Source of the DNA: Amphiscolops sp. MND2022 | Lineage: Eukaryota | Reading direction: 5' to 3' | Length of the DNA stretch: 64,000 nucleotides | Assembly: GCA_964187785.1 (NCBI GenBank) | Contig: OZ076409.1 | Span: forward strand, 70,186,001-70,250,000 | Shown: positions 3-55,681 of the stretch, piece after piece | How the letters are laid out: every line of letters begins with the position of its first letter | How positions within the stretch are numbered: the stretch's first letter is position 1 | Made by a program: the position numbers and the translations under genes | Notes under the pieces: model-generated | Databases searched by the model: none | What the model saw: the letters and a program-made list of their open reading frames with translations, nothing else | Told to the model about the DNA's origin: nothing

Positions 3-812
3 AGGCTAACCAATTGACAGCATTTGACAGCAATTGACAACTAATTGACAGCAAGTCACTCCAAATCATTATTAATGACGTCATTTGAATACTTCCTACT
101 AGTTCGAGCGTAAATATGCTGGTCTTAACTGCAATGCTATTGGTCCGTGAAATTAGAAAATGCAAATCACTGGTCCCAGTCTAAGCCGCGTCCAATACGT
201 TGTTGATATTTAATTAGATTACGCACTTGTAATTTGAATAGATTTTGACAGCTCCTTCAACCACTTTTTTTTGAATTTTTCATTCAATTTTTGGGCTTTT
301 GTAGTTCCCTATTGAATAGAAAGCGGTTTCAGGGATTTTGGCACTGTAAGATTGATGAACATTTTCGTATTCATTCCAAAAAATGCATGCTTAGAATTTT
401 TTTGGGTTTTTGAGCCTTTCGAGGCAACGATATGGAAACCCATGTTCATGACTTGTTTTGCTTGAAGAGTATTGTGATGAATGTTCTAAAAAAGATTTTG
501 CGGAATGTTACTTTGTACTTTTCTCCGCGTCAATAAACATTGTCCTAAAAAAGGCTAACCAATTGACAGCATTTGACAGCAATTGACAACTAATTGACAG
601 CAAGTCACTCCAAATCATTTTTAATGACGTCATTTGAATACTTCCTACTAGTTCGAGCGTAAATATGCTGGTCTTAACTGCAATGCTATTGGTCCGTAAA
701 ATTAGAAAATGCAAATCACTGGTCCCAGTCTAAGCCGCGTCCATTACGTTGTTGATATTTAATTAGATTACGCACATATAATTTGAATAGATTTTGACAG
801 CTCCTTCAAGCA
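3..812. repeat. Direct repeat of ~260 bp, copies at 3-265 and 552-812 (offset 549), with internal AATTGACAG-type mini-repeats
   Basis: aggctaaccaattgacagcatttgacag...gacagctccttcaa is read twice almost identically; it may extend beyond the window start. Confidence 0.9.
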
Positions 813-1394: not shown

Positions 1395-4300
1395 CTTGCC
1401 ACAGTACCTAAGCACCTAAGTTTTTCCTCTGCTCTGTAGACGTAATGGACAGAAATGGGGAGCGGGGTACGTCTGAGGAGAAACATCTAAATACAAAACG
1501 GTAAAAACATTGCAAAATCGCCAAAGTTTTAGGCAATAATAAAACTTTTAGACGTTATTCCCGTTCTCAAAATTAGACAATTGAAAGAGAAAAAATCAAA
1601 ATTTGAAACTGTTCAGACCAATGGCTTTGAAACAACAGAGGATTGTCGCAGGGGTACCAATGCCTACGTTTTTTGCCTCCGGATTTTGAAATCTTTCTAA
1701 TGCTGGAAAAGTCTACCTCTGGGTTTGAATTTTTTGTAATATTAGATGAAATACAGAGAAGCATCTGGCGGAAAAACATCTAAAAATTTGGCATGATCAA
1801 CTTCGGAAAGCCGGAAAAGGTATAAAAATGACTTGAAGAAGATCTAAAATGTTACGAGACTCTATGCTTAATGCCATATCGCGTGAATGTCAGAATAGTT
1901 TAAAGACTTTCCCCGATTGTACGTTACATGCTGTGAATGTACGCTCGCCCTCACAGTGGCAAAAACCAGCTCATACTGCAATCACATTCGCGATCTTCGT
2001 TCACCCTTGGTCTTTACACCTGTTCGACTTCGCTTATCAGGATGGCAAGATAAACGGTCCCAAGGGGCCGCGGTGCACTGAAGTGAAAGAGGATATTCTT
2101 TCAAACAGATGTTATTACACTTTTCAAACATAATTCCTTTTTTCAGTTTAGTTGGTATTTCTGTGTACGTTATTCCGACGGAACTTTTAGACGTTACTCC
2201 AAAGACGCTATTCGCGGCGCCCCTTTAACGAAATGTAGATGTCCAAAAATGCTTTAAAAAAGACCTTCAAAAGATTAACTTAGTCTAAGAAAGCTTGTTG
2301 AATAGCTGCTTGTTGAAAACTTGTTGAATAGAAGTGATTGCAATGACTTAAAGGAGATTAGCAATGCAGACGAGTAAGAAACATCTCTGACGCTGTTTTG
2401 TTGGTTTGTCGCTGGAGTTTGGCTGAAAGATCACACGAAACCCGGTGAGGTTGCTTCATTTTCACACTTCCAGTTTTTGATTAAATAAAATTTTTATACT
2501 TCCCTCTCACATTGGCCAGAGATTTCGTTTCTTTATAAGGAGCTTGACACACACTTAAGTGTGGTATTCCTGCAAATGGTGAAGTTTCGATGAGAAACAA
2601 GGAAACTTGTAGCGCTCCGAAGTTCGTGAAGGCTTCAGGCTTGATAGACTGGCTAAAGTGTAAATTTTGCGAAAGATGGGTCTATTCAACCTCGCTGAAT
2701 GTTAGATGCTAGATGCTCAACAATGAACACTGCTGCTTCTGCAACAATGGCCTTTTCAGACTTGACAAGGTGTTCAACTCCGGCATCGATCATTTGAAAA
2801 GGTACCCAAAACTCCCGTATCCCTGTAGTTGACAAATTGGAAACCAAATTCATGATATTTGTCAAAACACGTCGAACACTGCATTATGGTTCAATTTGCT
2901 AGATTCGCTAAGCCATTTTTTGGAACAACCACCGCGGAGGAGGCAAATGTCAGAAATCATCACTAAGCGCGATAATCAATAGGTTTCTCCAGGAGGGTGT
3001 CAGTGAGCATTCACAACCGACTGGTGAGAACCTGCCGCAACAGAAAAGTGAGTTGGATCGACGACTGCGCTCAATTCGCACTAAACTAGACGAGGGTAAC
3101 GTTGGGGCCGAATTTAGAATGGCTCCAGGCGACGACAAGGTTGCTGACTTTACTGTCGACCAATTCGAGACACTCATGCTTCATGATCCGCTGTTCCAGA
3201 ACACCTCGATGTAAAATGTTGTTCATCGTCCGTCCAGTTTCCATGTGCAGAAGTTTAAAGTCCTTTCCCAAAGGGTCTATTGCATGTTTAGACAGCATTT
3301 TGTCTCACGTTTTTAACGACCTGACTGCCAAACCGAAAGGGCAAGCGTGATTGAAATTTCAAAAAAATTTGACGAATCTCGTAAATGTGATACTGGAAAA
3401 AATGTACCCGACGACCTCCGATCTTTCTTCTTCGAAGCTAAATTGATTGGGCAGAAAAATCTGGAGGGAGGACTTCGGCCTTTTGCGATTAGCAACACTT
3501 TCCGCCATCTGTCTGCGGAAGTTTCTGGTTACCATCTTTTTGAATTGCGTCATGCCAGGTACGAAAGAAGTAAGAGTGTGTATTAGGAGATACCCGAATT
3601 GGCATCACACGTTTTTCGTAGTTTAGTCGAACGTCCCTAACCAAATCAAAACATCGTACCTAAACTAGACTTTGAAAACGCATTATACTCTGCGCATTCA
3701 ATTATTCACACTCAGCATAAAATCTGCCAAGCTTCCTTCTTTACGCCGACCCGAATACCAAGTTTTGTTAAGGGCCACAGTAAGGAGACCTTGACCAATT
3801 AGCTTTATTTTCCGACTCCATTCAAGACTGGAAAGAAAACATGAAGTCGAAAATAAACCAATGGGAACTTCATAACGAAAACTTAAGTGACGATCACAGA
3901 AACGTGTTGAAAGATGGAACAAGTTATCTCCGGATCACCGCTTGGCGTGGAATCACATTCAGACTTTTTATAAAAGAAACATGATGACCTGAAAAAAGAA
4001 AACATTCAAAAAACTAGATGCGCTTGGCGGATTTCACTTTTTGAAGAAGTGTTTCAGGTTACTAAAGCTTCCGCACTTTATACGATTCAGCGCCTGTTTT
4101 AATCAAGAACCGGTTCTGGAGAAAGATGGAAAAATCGTCAAAAACGGGTGTTCCAAAGTGTGCAGCGTATTTTTTGACAATATTCGGAGCGCTGAGCTGA
4201 CTTTGCCAGCTGCAATTGGCGTTCTAGTGTCAAACGCGTCAATGTTAGCACTTCCTGCATTTTTGGCTTCGGCTTTCGATGCGCGTGATTTCCTAACGAC

Positions 4301-7272
4301 CATTTTCTCGGAAACTTTCAGTGTTTCTTGCCACAGTACCTAAGCACCTAAATTTTCCCTCTTCTCTGTAGACGTAATGGACAGAAATGGGGAGCGGGGG
4401 TACGTCTGAGCAGAAACATCTAATAACAGAACGGTAAAAACGTCTGAAAACTGTGCCTTTTTGCAAAATCGCCAAAATTTTACGCAATATTAAAACTTTT
4501 AGACGTTATTCCCGTTCTCAAAATTAGACATTTGAAAGAGAAACAATCAAAATTTGAAAATTTTCAGACCAATGGCTTTGAAACGACAGAGGATTGTCGC
4601 AGGGGTACCAATGCCTACGCTTTTTGCCTCGGGTTTTTGATATTTCAAAAATGCCTTCGGATTTTGAAATCTTTCTAATGCTGGAAAAGTCTACCTCTAG
4701 GTCTGAATTTTTTGTAATTTTAGATGGAATACAGAAAAGCATCTAGCGGAAAAAGATCTAAAAATTTGGCATGCTCAACTTCGCAAAGCCGTAAAAGAGC
4801 TAAAATTGACTTGAAGAAGATCTAAAATGTTACGAGACTCAATATTTAATGCCAAATCGCGTGAATGTCAGAATAGTTTAACGACTTCCCCCCGAATGTA
4901 CGTTAGATGCTGTGAATGTACGCTCGCCCTCACAGTGGCAAAAACCAGCTCATACTGCAATCACATTCGCGATCTTCGTTCACCCTTGGTCTTTACACCT
5001 GTTCGACTTCGCTTATCAGGATGGCAAGATAAACGGTCCCAAGGGGCCTCGGTGCACTGAAGTGAAAGAGGATATTCTTTTAAACAGATGTTATTACACT
5101 TTTCAGACATAATTCCTCTTTTCAGTTTAGTTGGTATTTCTGTGTACGTTATTCCGGCGGAACTTTTAGACGTTACTCTTTAGACGCTATTCGCGGCGCC
5201 CCTTTAACGAAATGTAGATGTCCAAAAATGCTTTAAAAAAGAACTTCAAAAGGTTAACTTAGTCTAGAAAGCTTGTTGAATAGCTTAAGTGATTGCAATG
5301 ACTTAAAGGAGATTAGCAATGCAGACGAGTAAGAAACATCTCTGACGCTGTTTTGTTGGTTTGTCGCTGGAGTTTGGCTGAAGGATCACACGAAACCCGG
5401 TGAGGTTGCTTCATTTTTACACTTCCAGTTTTTGATTTAAAAAAAATTATTTCCCTCACACATTGGCCAGAGATTTCGTTTCTTTAGAAGGAGCTTGACA
5501 CACACTTAAATGTGGTATTCCTGCAAATGGTTAAGTTTCGATGAAAAACGAGGAAACTTGTAGCGCTCCGAAGTTCGTGAAGGCTTCAGGCTTGATAGAC
5601 TGGCTAAATTGTAAATTTTGCGAAAGATGGGTCTATTCAACCTCCTGAATCCGATTGTGCTAGATGCTCAACAATGAACACTGCTGCTTCTGCAACAGGG
5701 GCCTTTCAGACTTGACAAGGTTCTCAATTCCGGCATCGATCATTTGAAAAAGTACCCAAAACTCCCGTATCCCTGTAGTTGATAAATTGGCAACCTATTT
5801 CATGATATTTGTCAAAACACGTCGAACACTGCATTATGGTGCAATTTGCTAGATTTGCTAAGCCATTTTTTGGAACAACCATCGCGAAGGAGGCAAATGT
5901 TAGAAATCATCACTAAGCGCGATAATCAATAGGCCTCTCCGGGAGGGTATCAGTGAGCATTCACAACCGACTGGTGAAAACCAGCCGCAACAAAAAAGTG
6001 AGTTGGATCGACTACTGCGCTCAATTCGCACTAAACTAGACGAGGGTAACGTTGGGCCGAAATTAGAATAGCTCTAGGCGACGACAAGGTTGCTGACTTT
6101 ACTGTCGACCAATTCGAGACACTCATGCTGAATGATCCGCTGTTCCAGAACACCTCGATGTAAAATGTTGTTCATCGTCCGTCCAGTTTTCATGTGCAGA
6201 AGTTTAAAATCTTCCCCCAAAGGGTCTATTGCATGTTTCGACAGCATTTTGTCTCACGTTTTTAACAACTTGACTGCCAAACCGAATGGGCAAGCGTGAT
6301 TGAAATTTCAAAAAGATTTGACGAATCTCGTAAATGTGATACTGGAAAAAATGTACCCGACGACCTCCGATCTTTCTTCTTCGAAGCTAAATTGATTGCG
6401 CAGAAAAATCTGGAGGGAGGACTTCGGCCTTTTGCGATTAGCAACACTTTCCGCCATCTGTCTGCGGAAGTTTCTGGTTACCATCTTTTTGAATTGCGTC
6501 ATGCCAGGTACGAAAGAAGTAAGAGTGGGTATTAGGAGATGCCCCGAATTGGCATAACACGTTTTTCGTAGTTTAGTCGAACGTCCCTAACCAAATCAAA
6601 ACATCGTACCTAAACTAGACATTGAAAACGCATTATACTCTGCGCATTCAATTATTCACACTCAGCATAAAGTCTGCCAAGCTTCCTTCTTTACGCCGAC
6701 CCGATTACCAAGTTTTGTTAAGGGCCACAGTAAGGAGACCTTGACCAATTAGCTTTATTTTCCGACTCCATTCAAGACTGGAAAGAAAACATGAAGTCGA
6801 AAATAAACCAATGGGAACTTCATAACGAAAACTTAAGTGACGATCACAGAAACGTGTTGAAAGATGGAACAAGTTATCTCCGGATCACCGCTTGGCGTGG
6901 AATCACTTTCAGACTTTTTATAAAAGAAACATGATGACCTGAAAAAAGAAAACATTCAAAAAACTAGATGCGCTTGGCGGATTTCACTTTTTGAAGAAGT
7001 GTTTCAGGTTACTAAAGCTTCCGCACTTTATACGATTAAGCGCCTGTTTTAATCAAGAACCGGTTCTGGAGAAAGATGACAAAATCGTCAAAGACGGGTG
7101 TTCCAAAGTGTGCAGCGTATTTTTTGACAATATTCGGAGCGCTGAGCTGACTTTGCCAGCTGCAATTGGCGTTCTAGTGTCAAACGCGTCAATGTTAGCA
7201 CTTCCTGCATTTTTGGCTTCGGCTTTCGATGCGCGTGATTTCCTAACGACCATTTTCTCGGAAATTTCAGTG
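1395..7272. repeat. Tandem duplication of a ~2.94-kb unit (1395-4326 and 4327-7272)
   Basis: cttgccacagtacctaagcacctaa at 1395 and 4327; the units are colinear and give paired ORFs (3347/6296, 4041/6991); they differ by small indels and substitutions. Confidence 0.95.
2545..4323 (+). mobile_element. Degenerate CRE-clade non-LTR retrotransposon, copy 1 (3' part cut by the duplication junction)
   Basis: FFFEAKLIGQKNLEGGLRPFAISNTFRHLSA, LDFENA and LTLPAAIG..LALPAFLASA motifs; homologous to the element at 18230-21827. Confidence 0.85.
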
Positions 7273-7570
7273 ATTTTTCGTTCATGCGAGCGATCGAGAA
7301 ACGGTTGGTCGTCCCAACCTGTGTTCGAGCGCACTGCTTACAACTTGATTTTTGAAAAGGACAAAAAACGTCAAAAATTTCCAACGCTCATCGAGGTAAA
7401 TTGGGGTCGCAGTGGGTGAGACAAAGCTCCTCGGGCAACCCTGGAGCCACCGGTGCTGATGCAGAATCACAAAAGCTTAAGCTTAAGAAGTGTCAAGTAT
7501 TGATTGATAACGAACACATTTTCCAACCGGTGGCACTTGAAGTACACGATTCGTCAGGTGAATCTAAGGT
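5497..7570 (+). mobile_element. Degenerate CRE-clade retrotransposon, copy 2, retaining remnants of the RLE C-terminus
   Basis: Same motifs as copy 1, plus GNPGATGADAESQK and IDNEHIFQPVALEV at ~7430-7550 matching the RLE end of the 18230 element. Confidence 0.85.
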
Positions 7571-7730: not shown

Positions 7731-8125
7731 GTCTGCGCTTCATGAAGTGAAACGCGACTATTATACGATTACTTTTTTAAATCCACACCAACATTTGCCC
7801 GAATTGTTCCCCTTCACTTGATGTTTTGCAACTGAATGATGTTGAAAAATCCCAAAGGATCCCCCCTTTCAGTTTTTTCGGCATTGTGAGACTTTTTTTC
7901 AAGTTTTTTTCTTTGAAGAGTCCCCCTTCAATTTGATGTTTTGCAACATCTGATGTTAAAAAAAACGAAAGGGTCTCGCCCTAGCGGGACCCTGGCGCGC
8001 CATTTCGGTCCAACTTTATGGGTGGTTTTTCAAGTAGTGTAGAAGAGTATACTTTGACACTGATGTTATTTTGCTATTTTTGAGCCTTAGGTATGGCGCC
8101 GACTTAGGCCGTTCCCATATTGTTT
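7731..8125 (-). mobile_element. Non-autonomous Helentron/DINE-1-like repeat
   Basis: Terminal modules gagccttaggtatggcgccgacttaggccgttccc and gcgcttcatgaagtgaaacgcgactattata and internal aagggtcccccctttca units shared with other copies in the window. Confidence 0.6.
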
Positions 8126-10300: not shown

Positions 10301-10646
10301 GAACCGTCAATTTTAGGCTAAGGTCTTGCTTAACACTACGTTTAGCACTCCAGCAGTAAACCATTTATTCTACAGTGGTATTCATGTCTTCCGACTTGGT
10401 TGTTGGTGACTCCTGGAAAAGTGTGGTCCTTGTAGGCTTGAGAACTCCTGACTAAGTGTGGTTCCTAGCAAATTTAGAAGGGCCAACGTAAAGCAAACAT
10501 TATATGTAGTTCATGTTTTCTAACTAACTAATCTGTGAATATAATATTGAATAATTAACAATATATCGAAACCACACACTTCAGTCGTACATAATGCATA
10601 TGAAAATAGTTACAATGAAATTAAAATAAACATTCCGTCTATTTAT

Positions 10647-11090
10647 CACGTCCCCAAAATAGTTGCGGCTGCAAAATTCAATCATTTTAAAATTCCGCGC
10701 ATTCATCCCCGCAAACTTTTCCCGCGCTTTTCGTTAAAATCAACACAAAACACCGTTTGCTTAAAACATGCCAAAATTTTTGAAGATATTCCGGGTTTAT
10801 ATTCCATTGCAAAGCAATATGCTTTTTTATTTTCGACGTCCGCAGAGGTGGAGCGCCTGTTTTCGTACCATAACAAGTTTCTCACAGATGACTCGATCTT
10901 TAAAAAGCGAAACCATTGAATGGCTTTGTTTTTATACATTAAGTTGTATAATTTATATCATTGGTAATTACACTTTGTAATTTGAAATTATTGAACTTTC
11001 CGCGCTTTTCCCCACGATTTCAAGACATTTCAAATGCAACTGTTCCCGCGAATTGGTAAATTATATTTCCGCAACTTTCTAGGGGCCGTG
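10647..11090 (+). mobile_element. Internally deleted hAT-like element
   Basis: Imperfect TIRs CACG(T/G)CCCC..AGTTGCGG at both ends; internal STSAEVERLFSYHNKFLTD matches the hAT C-terminal dimerisation motif; no clean TSD. Confidence 0.7.
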
Positions 11091-11147
11091 ATTTTTTGAG
11101 TTGCTGATTACGATGAACGTATAAATACACACTTGACGGATTGAGCA

Positions 11148-11292
11148 TGCTAATCAACTGAAGCGCAATATTCATCTACGCATTAAAATAACAAAACACA
11201 TTGAGCGCATTAAAGTATGTCATACTTTAATGCGCTCAATGTGTTTTGTTATTTTAATGCGTAGATGAATATTGCGCTTCAGTTGATTAGCA
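11148..11292. repeat. Perfect palindrome, 72-bp arms with a 1-nt spacer (centre 11220)
   Basis: Arms checked base by base: tgctaatc...aaagtatg T catacttt...gattagca. Confidence 0.97.
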
Positions 11293-11592
11293 GAGAGATG
11301 TTTATATTGCTATTGGATTTGCTTTACCATTGCAATTGATAGATGTGTTTAATTTAAAGCATCCATTTCACTTACGATAACCATTTCATAATTTATTCTC
11401 TTCGTAATTATTAATCTCATTATTAGTTGAAATCTTTCTATCGATAGAAAGATTTCAACTAATAATGAGATTAATAATTACGAAGAGAATAAATTATGAA
11501 ATGGTTATCGTAAGTGAAATGGATGCTTTAAATTGAACACATCTATCAATTGCAATGGTAAAGCAAATCCAATAGCAATATAAACATGTCTC
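11293..11592. repeat. Near-perfect palindrome, 150-bp arms, no spacer (centre 11442/11443), 2 mismatches
   Basis: gagagatgtttat...ctttctatc|gatagaaag...ataaacatgtctc. Confidence 0.97.
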
Positions 11593-11716
11593 AAATTGCA
11601 AAAACCAATCGAAAGAACGGTGAATATTTGACTACATGAGTTAGGAAATGATACGGAATGAACAGTATCATCTCATTTGATTCACTTTTCAAATTCTATT
11701 TTTCCACTAGCCTGGT

Positions 11717-13871
11717 CAGTGTTGGTTAAACAAGCCGGGAACGGCCCAAGTCGGCGACATATCTTAGGGTCAAAAACAGCAAAAGGACTTCAAAGTGTCA
11801 AAGTATTCTCTTCTACGGTACCGGAAAAACCCAAAAGTTGAACCGAAATGACGCACCAGAGGGGACACCATTTTTCATCCATTCTGTCGCATATCATCAA
11901 AAAAAATGAAGGAGGGGCACTTTTGGTGAAAAAAAAATTGAAAAAAAGTCTCACAATACCAAAAAAACTGAAAGGCGGACCGGACCCTTTGGGATTTTTC
12001 AACATCCGTTCTGTCGGAAAACTCCAAAAAAATTGAAGGGGGGACCCTTTGGGGAAAATTTTTTTTCGAAAAAAAGTCTCACAGAGCCGAAAGACCCTTT
12101 GAGTTTCTTAGGTGATGTAAAAATACTACTTCGCAAGCTTTTGCGCCAGTATTTTAAATTTGCTAAGTAAGAATTGTAAGATTTTAAGATTGTAAGAATT
12201 GTAAGAAATGTGGACCGATCAGTGTGAGTATTGTAGTCTGAAGAAACAAGACGGGAACGTCTAGAGACGGCGCTATATCTAAGGCTCAAAAAAGCGCAAT
12301 TGTTAAAGGGGGGACCGTTTCGACTTTTTGGAAATCCAGTCTGTTACAAAATATCAAAAAAGTTGAGGGGGGACACTTTGGAGACATTTAAAAAATTTAA
12401 AAGTTTTTTTGGAAAAACTTTCGAAAAAAACGAAAAACGAGATTCTTGAAACAGTCTCATAGTGCCAAAAAACTAGAAAAGGGGACCCTTTGGGCTTTTT
12501 GAAACTTCAGTTTGCTGCAAAATATCAACAAACTTGAAGGAGGGACCCTTTGGCGACGAAAAAAAATTCGAAAAAAAGCCGCACAGTGCCGAAAACAATT
12601 GAAAGAGTCGCACAATGCCGAAAGAAATTGCTCGAAAAAGTTTCTGGCTAAAGCAAGGACTCGAACCCGTGACCGCTGGGTTCACCGTAAACCGAGTACT
12701 GACGAGTACATGTGAGCGAGAGTGAAGGCTGTAAAAAGTGGTACATAAGCGATGAGATCTGTGGTCTGACGAAAAAAAACCAGCCACTGTAAGAGTCGGT
12801 CACTATTCCTTAGAAAAACAACGTTTAAAACAGTTTAGAACGACTAAAACAATTTAAGACATATTTTTTCCAGAAATTTTCACTTTCTCAGGGTTCGCAT
12901 ACAAAAAGCCAATTTTACAACTTTTTCATTGTTCAGTTTTCATTTCTGTAGTCGTTTTGTATAAAACCCATGGTGCTGAATGCTCTTCCGACGCCTGCGG
13001 AGCTTGGAACGAGTGACATAAACTTCACCGAGAAGTTTGACTCTTCATGAACCCAATTGGTTTCGATCGACCGCAAATTTCGAACTTTTTTTATTTTATC
13101 TCCACCATCGTCTACGAAATCAAAGAAGTTAGAGACAGCATTTGGATATTCAGCTTTTATCCAATCTCCTGCATGCTTCACTTCAGATTTTGTGAGAGTT
13201 CTGCCTAACTACTCAGGATGGAGACATTTTGCAGCAAAAAAAAAGATGCGGGTACAGCAGCAGCATATCTTGTTTCGCATTTTTCTAGCCACTCACGACC
13301 ATCAGATCCCAAATTTGGTCGTTGATCCAAAAGTTGGCCTGCAATTTCTTTTCGAGTCGCAGGACGATATCCAGGATGGAGAATCTCAATCACTTCTTGA
13401 CAGTCGGTGAGTCAGCTGCACTAAATGGAATGTTACAAGCAAAAAAAGAATTTGGCCACCGTCATATCCAACTTGCTTCTCTCCTTCGGAGTTGTTTTAG
13501 AAACATGTGGGTCATCTTCAATTGTTTGGTTGGTACATCTTCATCTTCATTGCTGTCATGGATCAGTCGATGTTTTTTTGCATACTTTCCACTGATGGAA
13601 CAATATCAAACGCACAATCCTTGCATTTCGCTCGGCCATTCACTAAGGTTTCGAAATCGTTCCATACCTGATCACGTTTACGACCTGATTTTTGTCGCTG
13701 AGTCATGACTACCTGAAACAAACATTAAACATTTAAAACATTTGTTGAAGTCAATCCTGATACAAAACAACATATAACACATTTGTTAAAATCAATCGTG
13801 TTTAGAACAGAGATTCAAAACATTGTGAAACAGTGATTTGAACCATGGGTGTTTTTTTTCAGCCAACACTG
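11717..13871 (-). mobile_element. Decayed hAT transposon (BED finger plus dimerisation domain) with Helentron-like insertions
   Basis: Minus strand: GRKRDQVWNDF..AKCKDC (BED, ~13560-13706), LHPGYRPATRKEIAGQLLD, and VPSSAGVGRAFSTMGFIQ; CAGTGTTGG inverted at 11717 and 13871; no TSD match. Confidence 0.7.
11728..12830 (+). mobile_element. Two adjacent Helentron/DINE-1-like repeats (starting ~11728 and ~12244)
   Basis: aaacaag(c/a)cgggaacg..cggcg..atatct.agg.tc heads, internal aaaaagtctcaca..gccgaaaa..aaagggggacccttt units, B-box-like GGTTCGAGTCC on the minus strand at ~12660. Confidence 0.6.
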
Positions 13872-18229: not shown

Positions 18230-21200
18230 AGATATTGGCACACACCCAAATGTGGTATTCCTGCAGTTGGTTAGGTTCCGAGGTTGAGTTGTGATGGAAA
18301 ACAACGAAACCTGCACCGCTCTGAAGTGTTTGAAGCCCTCAGGGTTGATAGATAGGATAAATTGCAGGCTTTGCAACGGATGGGTTCATATAAAATGCGC
18401 CAATTTATCAAAAACGGATTCCCGGAACCTTGCCGAATTGAAATGTAGTAGGTGCTCTTTGGTGAACACAACCCCTCAGTGTCAGGATGATAACTTTAGA
18501 CCAGACACCATTTTTAATTCAGACGTTGTTCACTTGAAAAGAGTTCCTAAAAATTCACGGATCCCCTTAGCTGAAACCTTGATACCCAAAATTACTGATA
18601 CTTGTGAAACCCCGTCAAATATTCCCTTGTGGTGCTCACTGCTCTCTTCTCTAAGCTGCCCTCTGGGAAAACCACCTCGAGGAGGGAGACATCAGAAGTC
18701 ATCCCTCAGTGCAATTATCAACAGGCGTAATCGGGATGGTGTGATTGAGAAAAAACCGAAACGCGACTGAAATCCGCAGCAAAAAAGCGAGTTAGATCGA
18801 CGACTGCGTTCCATTTGCACTAAATTAGACGAAGGTAATGTTCAGGCCGGAATCAAAATGGCAGTAGGCGACGACAAGATTGCAGATTTCACGGTCGACA
18901 ACTACGCTGCCCTCAAGCTGAAACATCCGCAGAGGGAAACTTGTTCTGTTCCAGACCCCACAGAAATTGATTGTTACTCAACCTCGGAAATTTTTGTCCA
19001 AAATGCTCTCATGTCCTTCCCCAAAGCTCTAGGGCAGGGTTGGATGGCATTTCGCCCGAAATTCGGAACGATTTGACTGCGAAGTCGAACGGGCAAACTG
19101 GACTGAATTTTCTCAGAACCCTAACAAATCTTGTGAGTGTGATTTTTGAAGGAAAACACTTTTCGAACTTCGGCCGTACTTTTTGGTGCGAAACTAATTG
19201 CGCTAAAAACACGATTGAGGACTTCGTCTTGTCGCTGTAGGCAATACTTTCCGCCGGTTGTCAGTAAAATGTGCCGGATACCATGTCTTCGAATCACGTC
19301 AAGCAAGATATGAAAATCGACAAGTAGGTGTAGGCACCAAAAGGGGGCGCTGAATTGGCCTCACATGTTTTCCGTTGTTTGATAGAAAACCCCCAGGACA
19401 AAGACAACGTAATTGTGAAAATTGACTTTGAAAACGCTTTCAATTCGATTAACCGACTATTCATGCTAGAGAAAGTTTTTGATAAACACCCTGAAGATTA
19501 TAAGTACTCACACTCGGCGTACAGTCAGCCAAGTTTTCTTTTTTTTACGCTGATTCAGTAATCAAATATTGTGAAGGGACCCAGCAAGGAGAACCTGAGT
19601 CTCCAGCTTTAATTTCGGATTCTTTTCATGATCTGATTGACAGTTTGGAGTCGAAAATAAACTTATGGTACCTTGACAACGGAAATTTATGTAATGATTA
19701 CAGAACCGTTTTGAAAAATCTCAAAATAAAGTTGAAGCAGAAAAAACGCTGGGACTCAAAATTACAGCCACGGAATGTGAACTTTTATTCCTAGGTGACA
19801 TCACTGAAAAACGACGATCGACAATTTTAGCAACTTTCCAAAAAATTTGTTTTGGCGGGACCAAAACACCAAAGAAAGATGAACTTGTCCTTCTTGGTTC
19901 ACCGTTCGGCCCGAAATCACAAGCAGACTTATTGAAAAAGAAAATCAATGAACTGGAAAATATTAACGAAATTGTTGAAAAACTAGGTGCGCACAATGGT
20001 GTTTCAATGTTGAAAAATTGCTTTAGTCTGCCAAAGTTGTTGTACTTCCTGAGAACCAGTACATATTTTAATCTTCCAGCTCTCTTGGAGAAATATGACA
20101 AAACCGTGCGTGACGGGGTTTCCAAAGTGTGTAACGTGAACTTCGGCGATATTTCGAGTACTCAGCTGGCTCTGCCTGCTGAGATGGGTGGTCTTGGGGT
20201 TTTATCCGCATCATTAGCACTTCCCGGCTTTCTTGCCTCAGCTTTTGGTGCGAGTGACTTTCCTACGACGATTTTTTGTGAAACATTCGAAGACGTTTCG
20301 TCAACAAAACCGCTTGTGAAGTTGAGTTTGACGAATGAACAAAAAGTACTCTCGATGGAACTCAGAAAAGCTGGACACAACCTGTCTACGCCAAAACCGC
20401 CCACGCTTTTGTTTCTGGAATGGATGACAAACGTTCGAAACTTTTTAATACTCATCAAGGCAAATTCGGGTCTCAATGGCTGAACTTCGTTCCTCGCAAG
20501 AACCTAGGCCTGAAACTTGATGATCAGCAACTTCGTATTCCAATTGGTTTGCGACTCGGAGCCAACAGCTGTGTTGTGCATACGTGCCACTGTGGTAAAA
20601 GAGTTGAACGGGATGGTTTACACGGTCTTTCTTGCACAAATAGTGCTGGTCGCTTCTCACGTCAAGCTACTCACAATTCTCTCATAAAGCAGACGTTGTG
20701 ATCTCTCGACTTGCCTTCAATGCTCGAACCGCGTGGACTGTACCGAAGTGATGGCAACTGCCCAGACGGTGTTACCTTGAATCCTTGGGAAATGGGTAAT
20801 CAGCTGGTGTGGGATGTCACGGTTGTGGATGCCCTTGCACCAAGCGGTCTGAATCAAGGCTTTTTATGCAACCCGGGAACCACCGCCACCGTGGCTGAAT
20901 CGCGTAAAATTGGGAAGTATTGGGAGTTAATAGACAATGGATACATTTTTCAACTGGTGGCCTTGCAAGTACAGGGTTCTGGGTGGCTCTAAAGAGGTCG
21001 AATTTTTCTGGTCGAGTTTTTCTGGTCGAAAGGACAGAGGTCGAACCTTTTGAAAGATTTGCAGGGATCCAATGGAATGCGATCGAATTCGATCGAAGCC
21101 TTCTTTGATCGGTCGAATTTGATCGAACTGGTCGAAAACGTTGGAGTGTACGCCTTTGATCTAATGGCTTGGGTCTAATGGAATTAGATCTAACTGTTAG

Positions 21201-27892: not shown

Positions 27893-28472
27893 TCAAAATG
27901 TGACCAATTTTTAATATGCACATGTAAAACTTGTTGCCTGCTGAATCTTTAATTCGTCTTACCACTGTATATCGTATGGTAATTAAAGTCTTTTAGTAGT
28001 AGTAGTAATTGCAGCTTTAAAAATTTTTTCTACCGGTCGACTGCGATAGTGGCTGGTTTGAGAAGTTCGTTGGTTGTTTCTTTCTGCTACTGGGATAGTC
28101 GCTGGTATGGGATTCCCTACTTTCGTCGCAGACCACGGGTGTGTGTCTTCTCCCCCCAACATAATGATACACATGGCACTTGATTGATGACGAAGATCCA
28201 CAAACCCCGTTAGAACCCAGACGTATGATGAGTAATTTGAGAGTAGCATGCATGAAGTAAAGGGCGGTCAGTGCTTTTGATGCAAGAGAGGCCGATAAAA
28301 CATCTTGTAATACTAAAATTTTGGTCTTGGTCTGCTTTGTTCTGGAGATTCGATTACCCACTGCTTCCGGAAATGTTTGTTGAGGGTGAATTCTGGTTGC
28401 GCATTTCTCATTTTTCCCCGTACTTATAGGTTCTATGATTGCTATTGAGATAGCACATTCGCTTTGAGCAGA

Positions 28473-29747
28473 ATGAAACTCAACTGTTGCGTGAATCTCG
28501 TGGATCTGAATTTGAATGCGAAAACTTTGTCGCGTCCTCTGAAAGGTATCGTTTCAGTAGGTTTCCGAAGTTCGACAAAACCCGAGCAAGGCTCGGTCCC
28601 GTTGATTCTTGTTGCAACTGCTGCTGATAAAAATGGTCACAAGTTTTTAATAGAAGAAAACATTGATCGGATCTTTGAAAAGTTTACTCAACAAGGTAAA
28701 TGTACTATTAGGTTCAAAAAGCCCAATAAAGATGTGATGATCAGTGATGCATTACCAGCAGACTTGAAAACATTTTTGCAAATTGTACGATCTGTGATTA
28801 GCAAGAAAGAAAATGTCACTCAACTTAATGTTTTACTTCCAGTCGAAAAAGAAGACATAAAGCCGAAGCAGTTGAAAATGACTATCCGCAAAAGGGAAGA
28901 ATATCCAGTGACCAAATCGTTCCCAGGTTCACTCGAAGAGCTGTTTATTGAATCTTCATGTTGCCTGAAGCGAATTGAAGCCCGAATACTGTCGATCAGA
29001 AACCTTGTCAAATTGAGCATACCAAACCAGCAAATTACTGATATTCCTCCTGGAATCGGGTTAACGAGGTTGAAATATTTGAATTTAAGTGGAAACAAGA
29101 TTTCTGCCTTTCCTGAGTTGGCTGAATCCTGTTTCACGCAGTCTTTAGTCTCCCTTGATTTGTCATATAACGAGTTGCAGACTGTACCGGAAGCAGCTTT
29201 GAAGATGACCAAATTGATGGAATTACGACTGTCGCACAATCGAATCTTAGAGTTACCTGCAGAATTAGCTAAGTTATCATTTTTAAAGAAGGTTAAAGCA
29301 GCTCATAATTTGTTCAACTTTCTTCCTTCGAGTTTTGTTCGAAGAAAATTTGTGGAGTTAGACTTGTATGGTAATCCTTGGATCTCAGTGGAAGCTTCGA
29401 CTCAAAACTCTGTCCAACTAGAAACTTCTCAAGATGCAATTAACAGTCTGTTTTTAAAGTCTCTCTATGCACTTCGGAAGTGGCTCAATGGAAGAAACCT
29501 CATCAATTTCGAGTTTTTGCAAGATTTCTTGCCACAGCATTTGATTTCACAGCTCAAAAACTGTGAAGAATGCATTTGTGGATCATTTGTTTTGAATGCT
29601 AGAAGGATCATCAGTCACGTTGAGATATCAGAGTTTTGTGAAATTGTCATCAGTGTGAATAATCGTGGAACAACTACGGTTCCCGTTAGTTTTGTTGTAT
29701 GTAGTGAAACTTGTGAACGTAAATTAATGAACCATTCGCGTGTATAA
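28473..29747 (+). CDS. LRR1: Leucine-rich repeat protein 1 (PPIL5), CRL2 substrate receptor; intronless CDS, 424 aa
   Basis: MKLNCCV.. N-terminal PH-like domain (ENIDRIFEKFTQQGKCTIRFKKP), REEYPVTKSFPGSLEEL, LRR array, BC-box-like SLFLKS, C-terminal CICG...CSETC. Confidence 0.93.
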   Translation: MKLNCCVNLVDLNLNAKTLSRPLKGIVSVGFRSSTKPEQGSVPLILVATAADKNGHKFLIEENIDRIFEKFTQQGKCTIRFKKPNKDVMISDALPADLKTFLQIVRSVISKKENVTQLNVLLPVEKEDIKPKQLKMTIRKREEYPVTKSFPGSLEELFIESSCCLKRIEARILSIRNLVKLSIPNQQITDIPPGIGLTRLKYLNLSGNKISAFPELAESCFTQSLVSLDLSYNELQTVPEAALKMTKLMELRLSHNRILELPAELAKLSFLKKVKAAHNLFNFLPSSFVRRKFVELDLYGNPWISVEASTQNSVQLETSQDAINSLFLKSLYALRKWLNGRNLINFEFLQDFLPQHLISQLKNCEECICGSFVLNARRIISHVEISEFCEIVISVNNRGTTTVPVSFVVCSETCERKLMNHSRV

Positions 29748-33500: not shown

Positions 33501-36500
33501 CAGTAACTTAGCAAACAGTTGCTGTGGTATTGAGAAAAAGTTAATTTTCTGAAAAGTATTTTTTTGCAAATTTTCACATTTTTCTAGTTACTTTTTTGCC
33601 GGTGGTTCGGAAAACAAACTCTATTGACACAATTTCCTATACGCTTTTTGCGTTTCGTAATTTTTTATTGATTGTGAAAAAAATCGCTGTCCTCATTTGG
33701 GGACAAAAGCACTGCCGAGGTCAATGTAACTAGAAGGAAGTAATTACTTGAACTTGAAGGTTGTTTTTGTTTCAGGTGGCTATCACCTTATTTGAGATGA
33801 TAGAGTACTACGAATCTGCGACCAAAATCAAAATCGGTGCTAACAATAAATTGTCTCAGTATGCCTGGATGTACCTTTGTCAAATGATTAAAAAGGTTAG
33901 AAGTTCATAATAGTGTTCAATTCCTGCGCTATTTGTTTAGAATTGTCTGCTAATTTAACGAAAATCTGAACTATATTCGTTATTCTTAAAGCTTGTTCGG
34001 TTATACGAGTGGCTTGGCTACCTCAGAACTTTCGATGAACTTTTGCAGCATTGGTGAGCGGTTTCATTTTTGCTTCAGTGTCCGTTCATAGACCTTTTGG
34101 ACTGCAGCTTCACGGAACTTCAAGACGGGGCGGCTATTCTGGTGGCACGTGCTATCCGCAACAACTGCAACCTCGTAGCCTTGCACCTCATGAGCTGCCG
34201 AATGTCCGGAAAGTACCTCAACTACTTGGGTTAGTTAGTCACTCTATCCTCGCTGCACACTTGAACTGGTCGCCATTTGGTGCCATCTATTCTCAACTAT
34301 TGTCTTATTAAATTATTTGTAGTGGCTCTCATATGAATGAGTACATTTAGTTAGTTACGGTCCTACATGCGATAGTTCAAGTAATCGATTGCTTGTAGTA
34401 ACGGAATTCATATTGCACATTGACGGATGTCATGAGAATACATTGACGTCACTTCTAATTCAACTGTTCTGAGTTTTATTACTTTGCATATAGTACAAAA
34501 TTGCTCTGAGGTTTGCCTTATCATAAAAATTGATAGTAAAAGCAATACAATTTTGAGCCAAAGTAGTTTCAAAAGTTGCATCAACTGTGCTCCTCTAAGC
34601 CAGTTTCAATTATTGAAAATATAATTAGTAAAAAGTCAACTCATCAAAACTCTATTTTCCATTGCGCAGTTTTCGAAAATTTTTTGTTTCAGTTGTTGGG
34701 TTGCGCAGTAACTACATTCTTCAAGAGCTCTATCTGGGAGACAACAGCCTCACTCAAAGTGACGCCCTTCTTCTGAGTCAGCTGCTCAAACTCAACTTCA
34801 AGCTGCAGTGCCTTGACCTCAGAAACAACAATCTTGGCGTGAGTCATAAATATACTGACACTGTACTATTTAAACCAGGCTTGTGAAAAAATTATTGCAA
34901 TGTTTATTTTAAATTACAACCCGAAAAATAAATACTTGCAATAATGACAAACAAAAAATAAATTATTGCAATTATTGGCAATATTCAGTCGGATATCAAG
35001 TCCTGTATCACTGAAACTGACCAAAGTTTTTTGTTCGCTCGTAGGAACAAAGTCTCTTTTAGCGTTGTGGGCTCCATGTGGACCTATAGTCAGTCATGGT
35101 TCGTCGGGCTAGGCTGAAAAGCCTTTCTACCATATTTGATGTAGGTAGAATATGAAAAACTTGATATTCTACCTCAATTTCAATCCTCGTTCTTTTCATA
35201 GCACGCTCTGCCAGACTGCTTGCTCCCTTCTTTTTAGTTTCTACATCCACTGGCTCAATTGCTTTACCAAGACATTTGACTGAGCGTTTCTCCAATTCTG
35301 TGAGTTTAACGTTTTCTGAACCAAACATTTCGGAATTTTCTGTTTTTTTTTTGCAATTCAACAATCCCAGACTCAAAATCCGGTGAATGAACAATGTCTG
35401 ATTGTTCCGATATGTACTTAAGCATGTCAGGGTTTTCAGCGATGACTTGATCAAATAAGAGACTGGTCTGTGCCAAATTGCATTTTTCTTGCTGCAGTGA
35501 TGTTTTGAGGTGAAGTCTTTCAATTTTGCAAGTAGATTAGAAGATTTTTTCCAAAATTGGCACCAACTCATTGTACCGCTCTACCATCGCAAATGTCGAC
35601 GACCAGCTCAGCTGCCGTGGAAAGATCATTTTCCCTCTATAACAAGATTCTGGCCCCGGAAAGGCGTAGTTTGAAAGAAAAAACTCTAAATGAAGCCTTG
35701 TTTTTGTATTTCAATTCTGGGAAATTGTACTAATTTCTGTGATTTGTCGCTAGGAAATTGAAAATATTTCCAAGCTTGTTGTTTTTTTTCAGCCGCGAAA
35801 AGCCAAAAAAAGCACCGCGAATTTGAGTTTTTTTCCGCGATTTTCTGAAGGCCCTGATCCCTTGTAATGATTCCAGTCAAATAAACTTTTCTTCTTTCTT
35901 TTCTTGAGTCCTATTTGCTTTTGGTGTTGGCAAACAATGCACACAATTAATGACGTTAATTGCCTCAGTCCAACCGTCGCTATAATAGTCCAAGCAAGCC
36001 AAGCAAGTATAACAAGCATATATGCGAGCTGTGCGCCGGCTGGCGGAAGTGTGTTGTTCAATACCGTACTGTTCAATACCCTGCCCAAAAGTAATCCCCT
36101 ATTGCACAAAAATGAATAATGGAAATTTACGGACCTACGTGCCGAAGTATTGGCAATAATTGTGAAAATAAAAAATATATTGGTTTTGTCAGTTGAAAAA
36201 TAAATTATTGCAATATATTTATTGCAATATATTGGTCCCCCAATAATTTATTTTACAAGCCTGCTTTGAACTACAGTACAAGTGCAGTATAACTACTAAT
36301 TCCCTGTAATATGTGTACATAACTGTTCAAACATTTGATAAATTCTCTATAACTTAAATCACTGGATTTTTAGAGCACCAAATGTATAGTTGAGGAAATT
36401 GCTACCGAATTTAAAGTCCATTTGTTTCGCTCAAAAATGGTTAATTTTATAAGAATCCTGAAACAGAACTCGATTTTCAACTCGGACTACTTCAAAAAGC

Positions 36501-42234: not shown

Positions 42235-44605
42235 TGATGAAGTTATCGTAAAGTTCCGTCATGCAATGATGACGTCATCTGGAGGTGTCGTTATGCAATG
42301 GTGATGTCATATATGTGGCGCTATGCAATGACGTCATCTCAGCGCCAGGTCGCTGCTCCAAATGGCTGCCCAACAAGTTGCCCCTCTCCCGCCTTTTGCT
42401 ATATTACCTTTGCTACTAATAGCGTCAACAAACACACCTTCATAATTTATTTCAGCTTTCTCGCCTTTTGGGGCTCGGCGAATGTATTTAGTGTTCGAAA
42501 TTAGTTGACCAAGCCAGAGGTGCTACTCTGCTGGACCTAACTTGTAGCTAGAGCAGTTTGGCAGTCGCTGCTAGTTTTGCCTTCTTATTACACTGGATGA
42601 ACCAATCTATCTCACAAGTGCTTATTGGTATGTTGAACAAGGTATCAGTACTTACACAAAACGTTTTTGGATCTCGGATTGCACATTGATGTTGACGATC
42701 CTTCAAAATTACGAGCGAAGAACATAGTACAAGGTATACTACTAGAAATGAAATACAATTTTGTCAGGTTGTCATCATCAAGTTTCATTTTAAAAAATCT
42801 AACTATATGATCTAAATATTGATGCCTTGTTTTTCGAGTGCTTTTCAACTATTATAGCCTCTACTATAGCCGACTTGTGTATCTTGGTAACACACTCAAC
42901 CCCTGAACGATGAAAAGACAATCGCATTTCTAGACGAAGCAGCCGCCCATTGTAATGAATGCGTCAAAGTCAAGTCTTGGTGCTGTTTTTACGGAAGATA
43001 AATCTACCTTCTCAAGTAACTAGAGGGTTAAAAATTACCCGTTTATTTTTGGAAAGAATACTGTCTATTTTTCAATAAAATGTATTTACTTACATATTCT
43101 TCTTGAAAGGACATATGCTCCTATGAAAAATATGAAGGGTAAATTTATATTCTACCCGAAGATGCACTTTTAAAGGTTCAGTGCATTTCTCATTGTAATG
43201 CATAAATTAATTTCCTTGATTTAGTAAGTAGTCGACCATAAAAATGGTATTAATTTTTTTCCTATGAAGTTTTGCCAATGTTGCAAAAGTTACATTAAGG
43301 GCTTGCATAGTTTATAGGGTAATTCGGAGTTTTGCTGCAGTAATGCAGAATTTTGCTGCTTCTTTGAAGACGTGTGAAATGGTTAAAGTTTCAGACATAC
43401 CCCTAAAGGATAATATCCCAATTTTATTATAGAATATAAGTAGAGAGTGCTGTTGGATTAATTTCGTTTGATATTATAAAACTGTTGATATTTTTATACA
43501 AAACTTACAATATGATTTGTCGTTGCGTCGTCCTCGTTTCTTTTCAATTCCGTTTTTCATTGACAAAATTCTCCGACTTCAGAAATGATTCAATCCCAAT
43601 TATATTCTCAAAGGGTGCTATTTCATATTTCATTACCGTTTTCTTGCCCTCCTTGTAAACAAACTCGTGAACACCAATTTTCATTTGAAAAACTCTCGTT
43701 TCTCATTTGAACAAAAAATCTCTAATTCTGAATGAAAATCTATTCTGGAAATCGCATCAAAATTAGGGCCCTGGATGGTTTGGTAATTTCATGGCGAAGT
43801 TAAGTCCTGGATCTTTGAAAGTTGGAAAAAGGTTCTTCGTTTGTAAATAAGGAGGAAAATTGATATTTTTGAGTGAGTCTAGTCTAATTTACATTTCGAT
43901 AGGTTCTCATTCTGCTCCTACTCATAGTATGATTGATTGCTCAGCAAGTATTCTCCTTTGCTCCTCAACGACTCCATATCATTTCATTTCAGATTGAATA
44001 TTTAGATTTATATATTTAATATTTAATGCTGCTCTTTCTGTCGCAGCTTTCGCAGCGAGAAGATCAGAGAACAGATTCAATTTATTTTTTCCAGACATTT
44101 TGTCTTCACTGAGTGTAACTTAAATGTCCTATCTCTATAAAGATGGGAGTCAACTCAGTTTTTTGAAATTAAGAGACATTCAATCCAGTAAAATAAGATT
44201 TGTTAGGTAAAAATGAGGACATTGGGCGGCTTCCTTGAATTCGCTCATAATACATAATAATTAACTTCTAGCTTGATTTCTACGTTTGGCATGCTTTAGA
44301 TTCTAAATAAGATTCCTTCCGCAGAATTCAACCACGGAAAAATAGTTTCGTAGCATATGCTTTTATGGAAAATCTTAACTTTTTGATGAACAGTATGTGA
44401 ACAGCAACATGAAATAGTTATATTTCGTTATATTCTTCGTTGGAGTACCATGTCTTCGGTTTTCTTTTGTCCCAAGATTATTATATTTCGAAACTTGTCA
44501 ATTACAATAAAAATAGTTTCGGACTAAAAATCGTTTTTTTTCGAATAATAATTGGGGTTACAAAATCTTGAAATGTACCATCTCGTACAGCACGCTATAT
44601 TCGGA

Positions 44606-45748
44606 TTTTTAGTCTGCGCGACTATTATAGTTACTCTTTGTTTTCTTTTTTTTCAATCCACACGAACTGACCAAAATAGTTCTTAAAAGTTCTACAAAAT
44701 ATTGTTGCACCAAATTGCACCATTTGGCCTAGCGAACTGAACCAAAAAGGTTTTTCCTGTTTTCCCGCGTAACATACCATACCGGACGAGACCTAAGGGT
44801 CCCCCTTTCAATTTTTTTCGGCACTGCGAGACTTTTTTTCGGAAAAAAATTTCCCCAAAGGGTCCCCCCTTTCAGTTTTTTTTCGGCATTGTGAGACCTA
44901 TTTTCAAAGAAATGTTTTCATAAAAGGGTCCCCGATTCACCAATACTTTGGCACTTTGAAGTCCTTTTGCTATTTTTAAGCCTTAGATGTTGCGCCGACT
45001 TGGGCCGGGCCCGGCTTGTTACTATAGGAAGGGACATAGTGAAAGAGATCCATTAAGACTTTGGGAAACCTATCGGCGTCTCCAGATACAGCCACAGTCG
45101 AAAAACTTTTCTCGCTAAGCACAATAATCGTAAATGTCTGACGACAATTAACTTCAAGCTTGATTTTTAGTCGGCGCATTTTAACAAAAAGAGCCCGACT
45201 ATTACAGTGGCAAGTTTTTCTCTTTTTTTCGTCAGATAGAATGTATGCGTATTGGACACTTTTTACAGAACTACTAAACTACTGCACCGGTCAAAGGAAA
45301 CGCATCTAAGTTAGTGCAAAGGGTCCCCTTCAATTCACTTCCTTTTTAACGTAAGATAAAAAAAACCTGACGAGACTAGGGTCCCCCTGTGAATATTTTT
45401 CGGCACTGTGCGACTTCGAATTTTTTTTGTCACCAAAGGGTCTCTCCCCCTTCAAGTTTTTTGATACTTTGCAGCAGACTGAAGTTCCAAAAAGCCCAAA
45501 GGGTCTCCTCTTTCAAGTTTTTCGGCACTATGGGACTGTTTCAAGTTTCTCATTTTTCGTTTTTCTGGAAATTTTTTCGAAAATTCGAATTTTTTAAATG
45601 TCTCCAAAGGGCCCCCTTCAATTTTTTGATATTTTGCAACAAACTGGATTTTCAAAAAGCCGAAAGGGTCCCCCTTTTACAATTTTAAAAACTTTGCGCT
45701 TTTTGAGCCTTAGATATAGCGCCGACTTTAGACGTTCCCGTCTAGTTT
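44606..45748 (-). mobile_element. Two Helentron/DINE-1-like repeats (44606-45020 and 45164-45748)
   Basis: tttttagtc(g)gcgc..cgactatta ends and gagccttagat..gcgccgactt..cc(g)gcttgtt / tctagttt ends; internal gggtccccctttcaa units. Confidence 0.65.
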
Positions 45749-55660: not shown

Positions 55661-55681
55661 ATTCAATTCAATCAATGAATC

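What the first reader, a model, noticed from the sequence alone, without database searches (positions are those of the whole stretch)
11148..11592. Two abutting long palindromes (72+1+72 bp and 150+150 bp) with zero gap
Seen: a perfect 145-bp palindrome ends at 11292 and a 300-bp palindrome with no spacer and only two mismatches begins at 11293; the two share no obvious sequence. Established: spacerless palindromes this long extrude cruciforms and are usually unstable, and hAT transposases leave hairpins on flanking DNA at excision. Inference: either a scar of repeated hairpin opening or template switching (it sits between two hAT relics), a novel fold-back element, or a hairpin-RNA locus giving 72- and 150-bp dsRNA for endo-siRNAs.
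Basis: partly seen in the sequence, partly recalled or inferred. Interest (0 to 1): 0.72.

Follow-up and report, generated by a model that had tools for sequence, protein, structure and literature searches.

The report
Twin palindromes: likely double foldback scar
Two long DNA palindromes touch end to end in an animal genome; they most likely mark one recent chromosome break where both ends folded back and were rejoined, a known repair outcome at unusual size, with no sign of function.

Summary
P1 (11148-11292) has 72-bp arms, one central base and no mismatch. P2 (11293-11592) has 150-bp arms, no spacer and two mismatches. The gap is zero. Elsewhere in the window the longest perfect arm is 11 bp.

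The layout L-x-x'-y'-y-R points to one event. The best reading (0.5) is a double-strand break whose two ends each became a hairpin (sealed or folded back), were opened or extended 72 and 150 nt from the tip, and were joined blunt.

Canonical hAT excision is not supported. The tips share no target-site duplication (best 5 of 8; 1737 of 5000 random pairs do as well), and P2 lacks the single central base. Known Ds palindromes in budding yeast reach 20 nt.

No target duplication flanks either palindrome, and the arms have no other copy in the window, so a fold-back transposon is unsupported. There is no evidence for a hairpin-RNA gene. An assembly artefact stays open (0.15): no whole genome is held and reads were not examined.

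The boldest open reading is an unfolded, hairpin-capped 222-bp dumbbell element (0.06).

The parts
10647..11090 (+). Neighbouring 444-bp TIR-bounded relic, hAT-like (context, not part of the palindromes)
   Evidence: Terminal inverted repeats 20 of 24 identical; TSAEVERLFS motif in ORF 10551-10919, recalled as hAT C-terminal; only weak tblastn to other in-window relics, E 0.2-0.4; no Pfam hit; no intact 8-bp target duplication
11091..11147 (.). Left flank L, 57 bp, no other copy in the window
11139..11155 (.). Short quasi-palindrome (8 of 9 with one bulge) centred exactly on the left edge of P1; unexplained
   Evidence: 7 of 2476 random positions score as high with strict scoring, 49 of 2476 with lenient scoring; 3 junctions tested, noticed after the fact
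11148..11219 (+). Arm x of P1 (72 bp); inferred original sequence left of the break
   Evidence: original/new assignment is inference
11220..11220 (+). Single unpaired central base of P1 (hairpin tip)
11221..11292 (+). Arm x', perfect reverse complement of x; inferred new copy
11292..11293 (.). Joint between P1 and P2: zero gap, zero overlap, zero microhomology with the natural continuations
11293..11442 (+). Arm y' of P2 (150 bp); inferred new copy; differs from y at 11297 and 11350
11443..11592 (+). Arm y of P2 (150 bp); inferred original sequence right of the break; spacerless centre at 11442|11443
11593..11716 (.). Right flank R, 124 bp, no significant copy in the window
   Evidence: best nhmmer E 0.047 in low-complexity sequence
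11717..13871 (-). Neighbouring decayed hAT-like element (context), interrupted at about 11727-12605 by copies of a dispersed repeat family
   Evidence: Terminal inverted repeat 11 of 11, 16 of 19 extended; broken frames match the ORF at 57168-57665, E 1e-5, which I read from recall as a BED-finger transposase start; repeat copies

Best explanation
A young repair scar of one double-strand break. The left end (ending in x) and the right end (starting with y) each became a hairpin, either sealed covalently at the tip or folded back on a tiny loop. Each was then opened by a distant nick, or extended by copying, to give x-x' (72 nt added) and y'-y (150 nt added). The two new ends were joined blunt and filled in, giving L-x-x'-y'-y-R. 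This is the layout of P-nucleotide joints and of foldback insertions at breaks, on both ends and at large size. Shown: the geometry, near-identity of the arms, absence of target duplications and of in-window copies. Inferred: which arms are original, the break, the hairpins and the joining. The cause of the break is not identified; a hairpin-forming transposase (hAT, MULE, Transib) accounts for only about 0.15 of the 0.5. Most likely it is neutral, though it could extrude a cruciform or give dsRNA if transcribed.
For: Exact abutment of the only two long palindromes in 64 kb has a chance of about 3e-5 under independent placement, so one event links them; a two-ended joint gives abutment without extra steps. 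Tips of 1 and 0 unpaired bases suit covalently sealed hairpins; ordinary 3- and 4-nt foldback loops would both read this way about 2% of the time (rough). Ac/Ds palindromes centre on one base, as P1 does (PMC5873905, passages). In yeast, one break end gives local foldback copies of 10 to over 150 bp joined to the other end by NHEJ with 0-5 bp microhomology (PMC11724301, section 15); the joint here has 0. Arm divergence is 2 of 222 (0.9%, 95% interval 0.1-3.2%), younger than the neighbouring repeats (TIR 20 of 24; tandem duplication 94.8%). No target duplication and no second in-window copy.
Against: The pre-break allele was not seen; the same layout results from inserting an unfolded dumbbell, and no test here separates the two. 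No shared target duplication at the tips (best 5 of 8; 1737 of 5000 random pairs reach 5 or more), and P2 has no single central base. Known P-nucleotide arms are short: up to 20 nt for Ds in budding yeast, 3 in Candida, up to 6 nt in Artemis-null joints (PMC2715118, passages). The yeast foldbacks I read about were one-sided and kept a 41-nt loop. Ac/Ds footprints show microhomology in 51 to almost 100% of cases; this joint has none. The quasi-palindrome at the left edge of P1 is not predicted by this model.
Confidence: 0.5

Rival explanations
1. Captured insertion: the 445 bp came from elsewhere, either as two foldback-copied fragments caught at a break, or as one 222-bp duplex capped by hairpins at both ends, nicked once and unfolded. 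L and R were then neighbours, and x'|y' may be an old continuous sequence.
For: Gives the same layout. Yeast breaks capture inverted pairs copied from distant loci, median 50-150 bp (PMC11724301, section 19). L ends in a near copy (8 of 9) of the end of x', as expected if L primed on such a template. Zero microhomology at x'|y' fits an unbroken sequence.
Against: Needs more steps. No donor in the window. Captured inverted pairs in yeast have gaps of about 2-20 bp or more and 2-11 bp microhomology at the inversion, not 0-1 nt tips. No target duplication around the 445 bp; best 4 bp.
Confidence: 0.17
2. Sequencing or assembly artefact: foldback reads from amplification or library preparation, or two contig ends with foldback tips joined together.
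For: Amplification makes palindromic long reads (10.1101/173872, passages); foldback inversions are a main PacBio artefact class (10.64898/2026.06.24.734375, passages); adapter-linked inverted duplicates enter assemblies (PMC8864876, passages). The 150-bp arm equals a common read length (recalled). The 8 bases at 11292-11299 equal the last 8 of the adapter printed in PMC8864876; that word occurs 2 times in the window, both strands counted.
Against: It needs three junctions within 223 bp and a return to unique sequence. The arms differ at 2 sites, whereas in-vitro copies should be identical. No adapter lies at either centre, where that artefact would put it. The assembly looks accurate and contiguous: a 1876-codon open frame and a contig of 449,975 bp on record for the window's LRR1 protein.
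Confidence: 0.15
3. One or two non-autonomous fold-back transposons (MITEs made only of terminal inverted repeats), one inserted at the end of the other.
For: Arm lengths and near-identity suit young MITEs (recalled); the window is full of DNA-transposon relics.
Against: Longest exact direct repeat at the flanks, with boundaries shifted up to 6 bp, is 4 bp for P1, 3 bp for P2 and 4 bp for both, although arms 99-100% alike should keep an intact duplication. No second copy in 64 kb. No spacer. Exact abutment by two insertions is improbable.
Confidence: 0.1
4. A selected hairpin-RNA gene giving 72- and 150-bp dsRNA for endo-siRNAs. This could also follow any of the origins above.
For: Either strand folds into two long stems. 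One of the two mismatches is a G-U pair on the + strand.
Against: No Rfam family at its gathering score. The 28 sub-threshold hits are mostly unrelated miRNA hairpin models, many on both strands. No target for the arms in the window. Near-perfect arms and no loop suggest youth, not refinement (inference). Any transition mismatch is G-U on one strand.
Confidence: 0.06

Closest known systems
P-nucleotide footprints of hAT (Ac/Ds, Hermes), MULE and Transib excision and of V(D)J coding joints (PMC5873905, PMC5499845, PMC2715118; passages read)
   Same: Hairpins on both flanking ends, opened off-centre and end-joined, give abutting palindromes; the single central base of P1 matches the Ac/Ds pattern.
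   Different: Arms here are 72 and 150 bp against at most 20 nt (Ds in budding yeast) and 6 nt (Artemis-null joints); no shared target duplication at the tips; P2 has no central base; no microhomology at the joint.
Local foldback inverted insertions at double-strand breaks in yeast (Yu et al. 2024, PMC11724301; abstract and sections 15, 19, 22 read); foldback inversions (Li et al. 2020, PMC7467729; passages read)
   Same: Inverted copy of break-adjacent DNA, 10 to over 150 bp, joined to the other end with 0-5 bp microhomology.
   Different: Described from one end, with a retained loop (41 nt in PMC11724301; medians of 3-36 nt by genotype in PMC7467729). Here both ends, tips of 0-1 nt, in an assembled animal genome.
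Ds-adjacent 598-bp inverted repeat in Arabidopsis (PMC1978519; passages read); Tam3 niv-525 inverted duplication (recalled; one search found no paper with the term)
   Same: Long inverted duplications attributed to hAT hairpin chemistry.
   Different: A single inverted repeat attached to the element's end; here two palindromes, 57 and 124 bp from the nearest relic ends.
Mitochondrial double-hairpin elements of chytrids and fission yeasts (PMC10085805; passages read)
   Same: Two adjacent hairpins as one unit.
   Different: Those are GC-rich, multi-copy and mitochondrial; this is 27-33% GC, 445 bp, nuclear, single in the window.
Perfect palindromes in Nematomorpha mitochondrial genes (PMC6649704; passages read)
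   Same: Perfect inverted repeats up to 284 bp in an animal, kept alike by conversion.
   Different: Those lie in coding mitochondrial genes; here I recognised no mitochondrial protein in frames read under tables 5 and 14 (by eye only).

Membership tests
hAT excision footprint | Same 8-bp target duplication at both hairpin tips | tested here: not met
   Best 5 of 8 over 20 registers; 1737 of 5000 random pairs reach 5 or more
hAT excision footprint | Each palindrome centred on one unpaired base | tested here: not met
   Met for P1 (11220), not for P2; rule from PMC5873905
hAT excision footprint | Short arms (up to about 20 nt) | tested here: not met
   72 and 150 bp against 20 nt
hAT excision footprint | An allele with the element still between x and y | not testable with these tools
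   No whole genome held
Foldback or hairpin scar of a double-strand break | Inverted copy of break-adjacent DNA joined with 0-5 bp microhomology | tested here: met
   Geometry and zero-microhomology joint; the same geometry fits a captured insertion
Foldback or hairpin scar of a double-strand break | Outer arms continuous with their flanks in the pre-break allele | not testable with these tools
   No homologue of flanks or arms found
Fold-back transposon / MITE | Target-site duplication at the ends | tested here: not met
   Longest 3-4 bp with shifted boundaries; a 2-bp duplication cannot be told from chance
Fold-back transposon / MITE | Multiple dispersed copies | tested here: inconclusive
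   None in 64 kb; genome not held
Hairpin RNA / miRNA locus | Long fold-back structure | tested here: met
Hairpin RNA / miRNA locus | Match to a curated RNA family | tested here: not met
   0 at gathering score; 28 hits, all below it
Hairpin RNA / miRNA locus | Transcription and 21-24-nt products | not testable with these tools
   No reads were laid on the locus
Adapter-linked inverted duplicate (PacBio artefact) | Adapter sequence between or beside the inverted copies | tested here: not met
   Tips hold 1 and 0 bases; only an 8-base match at the outer edge of P2
Mitochondrial double-hairpin element | GC-rich, repeated, mitochondrial | tested here: not met
   27-33% GC; nuclear genes in the window

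The most novel reading that the evidence does not exclude
The 445 bp are a minimal self-circularising element. Because the gap is zero, the folded single strand brings its 5' end (11148) and 3' end (11592) together at a nick opposite the continuous 11292-11293 strand. One ligation would give a covalently closed 222-bp dumbbell. Its inner half is the reverse complement of its own circle junction, the splint logic recalled from the internal complementary region of DIRS elements. Such a protein-free element, copied as RNA or single-stranded DNA and reinserted without target duplication, would be an undescribed kind as far as my searches went. It predicts dispersed copies with exact ends and empty L|R sites.
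Probability: 0.06. Interest if true: 0.8.

Novelty: new variant of a known kind. Interest (0 to 1): 0.33.

Why it matters
If real, it is a natural record of both ends of one break being folded back at 72 and 150 bp, several times the 20-nt maximum reported for Ds footprints in budding yeast. It also shows that a nearly spacerless 300-bp palindrome can persist in an animal nuclear genome; the longest perfect arms reported for human are 140 bp (PMC13155455, passage). If such twins recur across this genome, the lineage opens DNA hairpins far from the tip, and this would be a route to new dsRNA loci in a single step. As a single locus without an ancestral allele, reads or function, it is a curiosity.

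Tried and rejected
Whole genome: none held. Sequencing runs for 10400-11740: none was listed, so no reads were laid; this is no evidence either way.

Exact scans, all 0 hits: arm y' in JGI metagenomes; arms x and y' in viral contigs; the P1|P2 junction in prokaryote genomes; the dispersed repeat core in JGI metagenomes, to obtain more DNA of this organism. blastn of 11091-11716 against plasmids and phages: no match.

Earlier findings: none by place, none by sequence for the locus, none for the first word set. One search showed 8 of 638 findings, all on other hairpin systems; one search showed 2 unrelated ones.

An older, longer palindrome centred on the left edge of P1: rejected, the best anchored match stops at 8-9 bp. 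Coding role: longest stop-free run 55 codons in six frames under table 1; no recognisable protein under tables 5 and 14. tRNA genes: none. A 2-bp GA overlap between the two tips (seen): dismissed as chance level and asymmetric. Single template switch or inverted triplication: rejected by reasoning, since these give an inner block equal to the reverse complement of x+y with shared arms, whereas the inner block here is the reverse complement of y+x. Cruciform resolution: rejected, it would give both hairpins the same tip.

No paper describing two abutting long spacerless palindromes as one repair scar came up in searches. I saw listings for most hits and read only the papers named. The library lacks most subscription papers, and I opened no supplements.

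Full report
Observation. Both palindromes stand exactly as reported. P1 is 11148-11292: 72-bp arms, one central T, no mismatch. P2 is 11293-11592: 150-bp arms, no spacer, mismatches at 11297/11588 and 11350/11535, perfect for 92 bp from the centre. The gap is zero and neither extends further. They are the only two palindromes in the window above a score of 12. The longest perfect arm in the rest of the window is 11 bp, and 7-10 bp in 10 shuffles. The arms x and y share no word over 8 bp.

Setting. The window is repeat-rich eukaryotic nuclear DNA. It holds DNA polymerase epsilon (46269-53342) and LRR1 (28449-29747) among retroelement and DNA-transposon relics (16 of 68 ORFs were scanned). The polymerase scores about 1850 bits against the 2286-residue PDB chain and about 1340 against the 2222-residue chain; from recall these are human and budding yeast, so the host is an animal. 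An acoel is my guess from recall and is untested. The palindromes lie in a 626-bp stretch between a 444-bp TIR-bounded relic (10647-11090) and a decayed element at 11717-13871. Both look hAT-like by recalled motifs and in-window similarity, but the left relic and the two in-window transposase-like ORFs gave no supporting Pfam hit, and the right relic was not scanned. No whole genome is held.

One event. Write the locus as L-x-x'-y'-y-R. Two long palindromes placed independently in 64 kb would abut exactly about 3 times in 100,000. The inner block x'y' is the reverse complement of y followed by x, not of x followed by y, so a single template switch or an inverted triplication does not give it (reasoning). 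Two histories do. In the first, a break between x and y had both ends turned into hairpins, opened or extended, and joined. In the second, a piece from elsewhere was inserted between L and R, for instance a hairpin-capped 222-bp duplex nicked once and unfolded. The sequence alone does not separate them; the first needs fewer steps.

For the two-ended scar. Flank hairpins followed by opening and end joining are the established chemistry of hAT, Transib, MULE and RAG (PMC5499845, passages). Ac/Ds footprints carry palindromes centred on one base (PMC5873905, passages), as P1 does. In yeast, a break end can fold back and add an inverted copy of 10 to over 150 bp that is joined to the other end with 0-5 bp microhomology (PMC11724301, section 15); the joint here has none. 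Tips of 1 and 0 bases suit covalently sealed hairpins: 3- and 4-nt loops would both read so about 2% of the time (rough estimate). The arms differ at 2 of 222 sites (0.9%, interval 0.1-3.2%), against 20 of 24 identity in the neighbouring TIR and 94.8% in a nearby tandem duplication. The event is therefore young, or its arms are kept alike by conversion.

Against a canonical hAT footprint. The two tips should carry the same 8-bp target duplication. The best match over 20 registers is 5 of 8, which 1737 of 5000 random pairs reach; 5-, 9- and 10-bp tests gave 3, 5 and 6. P2 lacks the single central base. Reported arms are short: at most 20 nt for Ds in budding yeast, 3 in Candida, 6 in Artemis-null joints (PMC2715118, passages). 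Microhomology is seen in 51 to almost 100% of Ac/Ds footprints and is absent here. Excision that used the ends of two different elements would leave unmatched tips and is not excluded (inference). So it works like a giant double P-nucleotide joint, but it fails membership as a hAT footprint.

Captured insertion. Yeast breaks also capture inverted pairs copied from distant loci (PMC11724301, section 19). One detail favours this: the left edge of P1 sits at the centre of an 8-of-9 quasi-palindrome, so L ends in a near copy of the end of x'. Of 2476 random positions, 7 score as high with strict scoring and 49 with lenient scoring; I tested three junctions after seeing it, and the other two scored zero. 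No donor was found in the window or in any collection searched, but none of those collections is this animal's genome.

Fold-back transposon. With boundaries shifted by up to 6 bp, the longest exact flanking direct repeat is 4 bp for P1, 3 bp for P2 and 4 bp for both together. Arms this alike should keep an intact duplication. There is no second copy in 64 kb. Genome-wide copy number is untested.

Hairpin RNA. The + strand folds as RNA at -358.7 kcal/mol (z -40), and both strands fold as DNA. That follows from the palindromes themselves. Rfam gives nothing at gathering score and 28 sub-threshold hits, mostly unrelated miRNA hairpin models. Transcription and small RNAs are untested.

Artefact. 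Palindromic reads are common after amplification (10.1101/173872, passages), and foldback inversions are a main PacBio artefact class (10.64898/2026.06.24.734375, passages). The 8 bases at 11292-11299 equal the end of the adapter printed in PMC8864876, a word seen 2 times in the window. Against this: no adapter lies at the tips, three junctions within 223 bp would be needed, the arms differ at two sites, and the assembly holds a 1876-codon open frame on a contig of 449,975 bp. I put it at 0.15; reads were not examined.

Novelty. Searches brought up no paper describing two abutting long spacerless palindromes as one scar; the library lacks most subscription papers and I opened no supplements. 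Single long inverted repeats from hAT chemistry are known (PMC1978519, passages; niv-525 recalled). Double-hairpin elements are GC-rich and mitochondrial (PMC10085805, passages). I rate it a new variant of a known kind.

Verdict. A real-looking, young, probably neutral twin palindrome. Odds: two-ended hairpin or foldback scar 0.5 (transposase-triggered about 0.15 of that), captured insertion 0.17, artefact 0.15, fold-back transposon 0.10, selected hairpin RNA 0.06. The boldest open reading, a self-circularising dumbbell element, is 0.06 and falls within the insertion and transposon rivals. Interest 0.33.

Noticed in passing
window 1395-7276: Tandem duplication with a period of about 2.95 kb, 94.8% identical over 2658 bp; both copies match the PHD-finger retroelement-like ORFs at 18288-20483.
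   Followed up: partly
window 46269-53342: DNA polymerase epsilon gene with a 1876-codon first open frame and one visible GT-AG intron of about 145 bp at 51896-52040; LRR1 at 28449-29747 is also a single frame. Unusually intron-poor for an animal.
   Followed up: partly
window 11727-12605, 7820-8125, 44600-45750, 55680-56350, 58050-58380: Dispersed non-coding repeat family built of roughly 60-bp subunits with a GGGGACCCTTTGG core; 16 copies of a 27-nt core in the window. No exact match in JGI metagenomes.
   Followed up: partly
window 63441-63641: 100-bp tandem duplication, 97% identical, each unit with a box-B-like motif (recalled), possibly a tRNA-derived SINE piece; ARAGORN finds no tRNA.
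   Followed up: no
window 3-265 and 552-814: Direct repeat of 263 bp, 97.7% identical.
   Followed up: no
window 11139-11155: Short quasi-palindrome centred exactly on the left edge of P1; not explained by the favoured model.
   Followed up: yes
window 35059-35652 and 57168-57665: Further transposase-like fragments (VERLFS / VERSFS motifs; a BED-like start), hAT-like by recall, without a Pfam hit above chance.
   Followed up: partly
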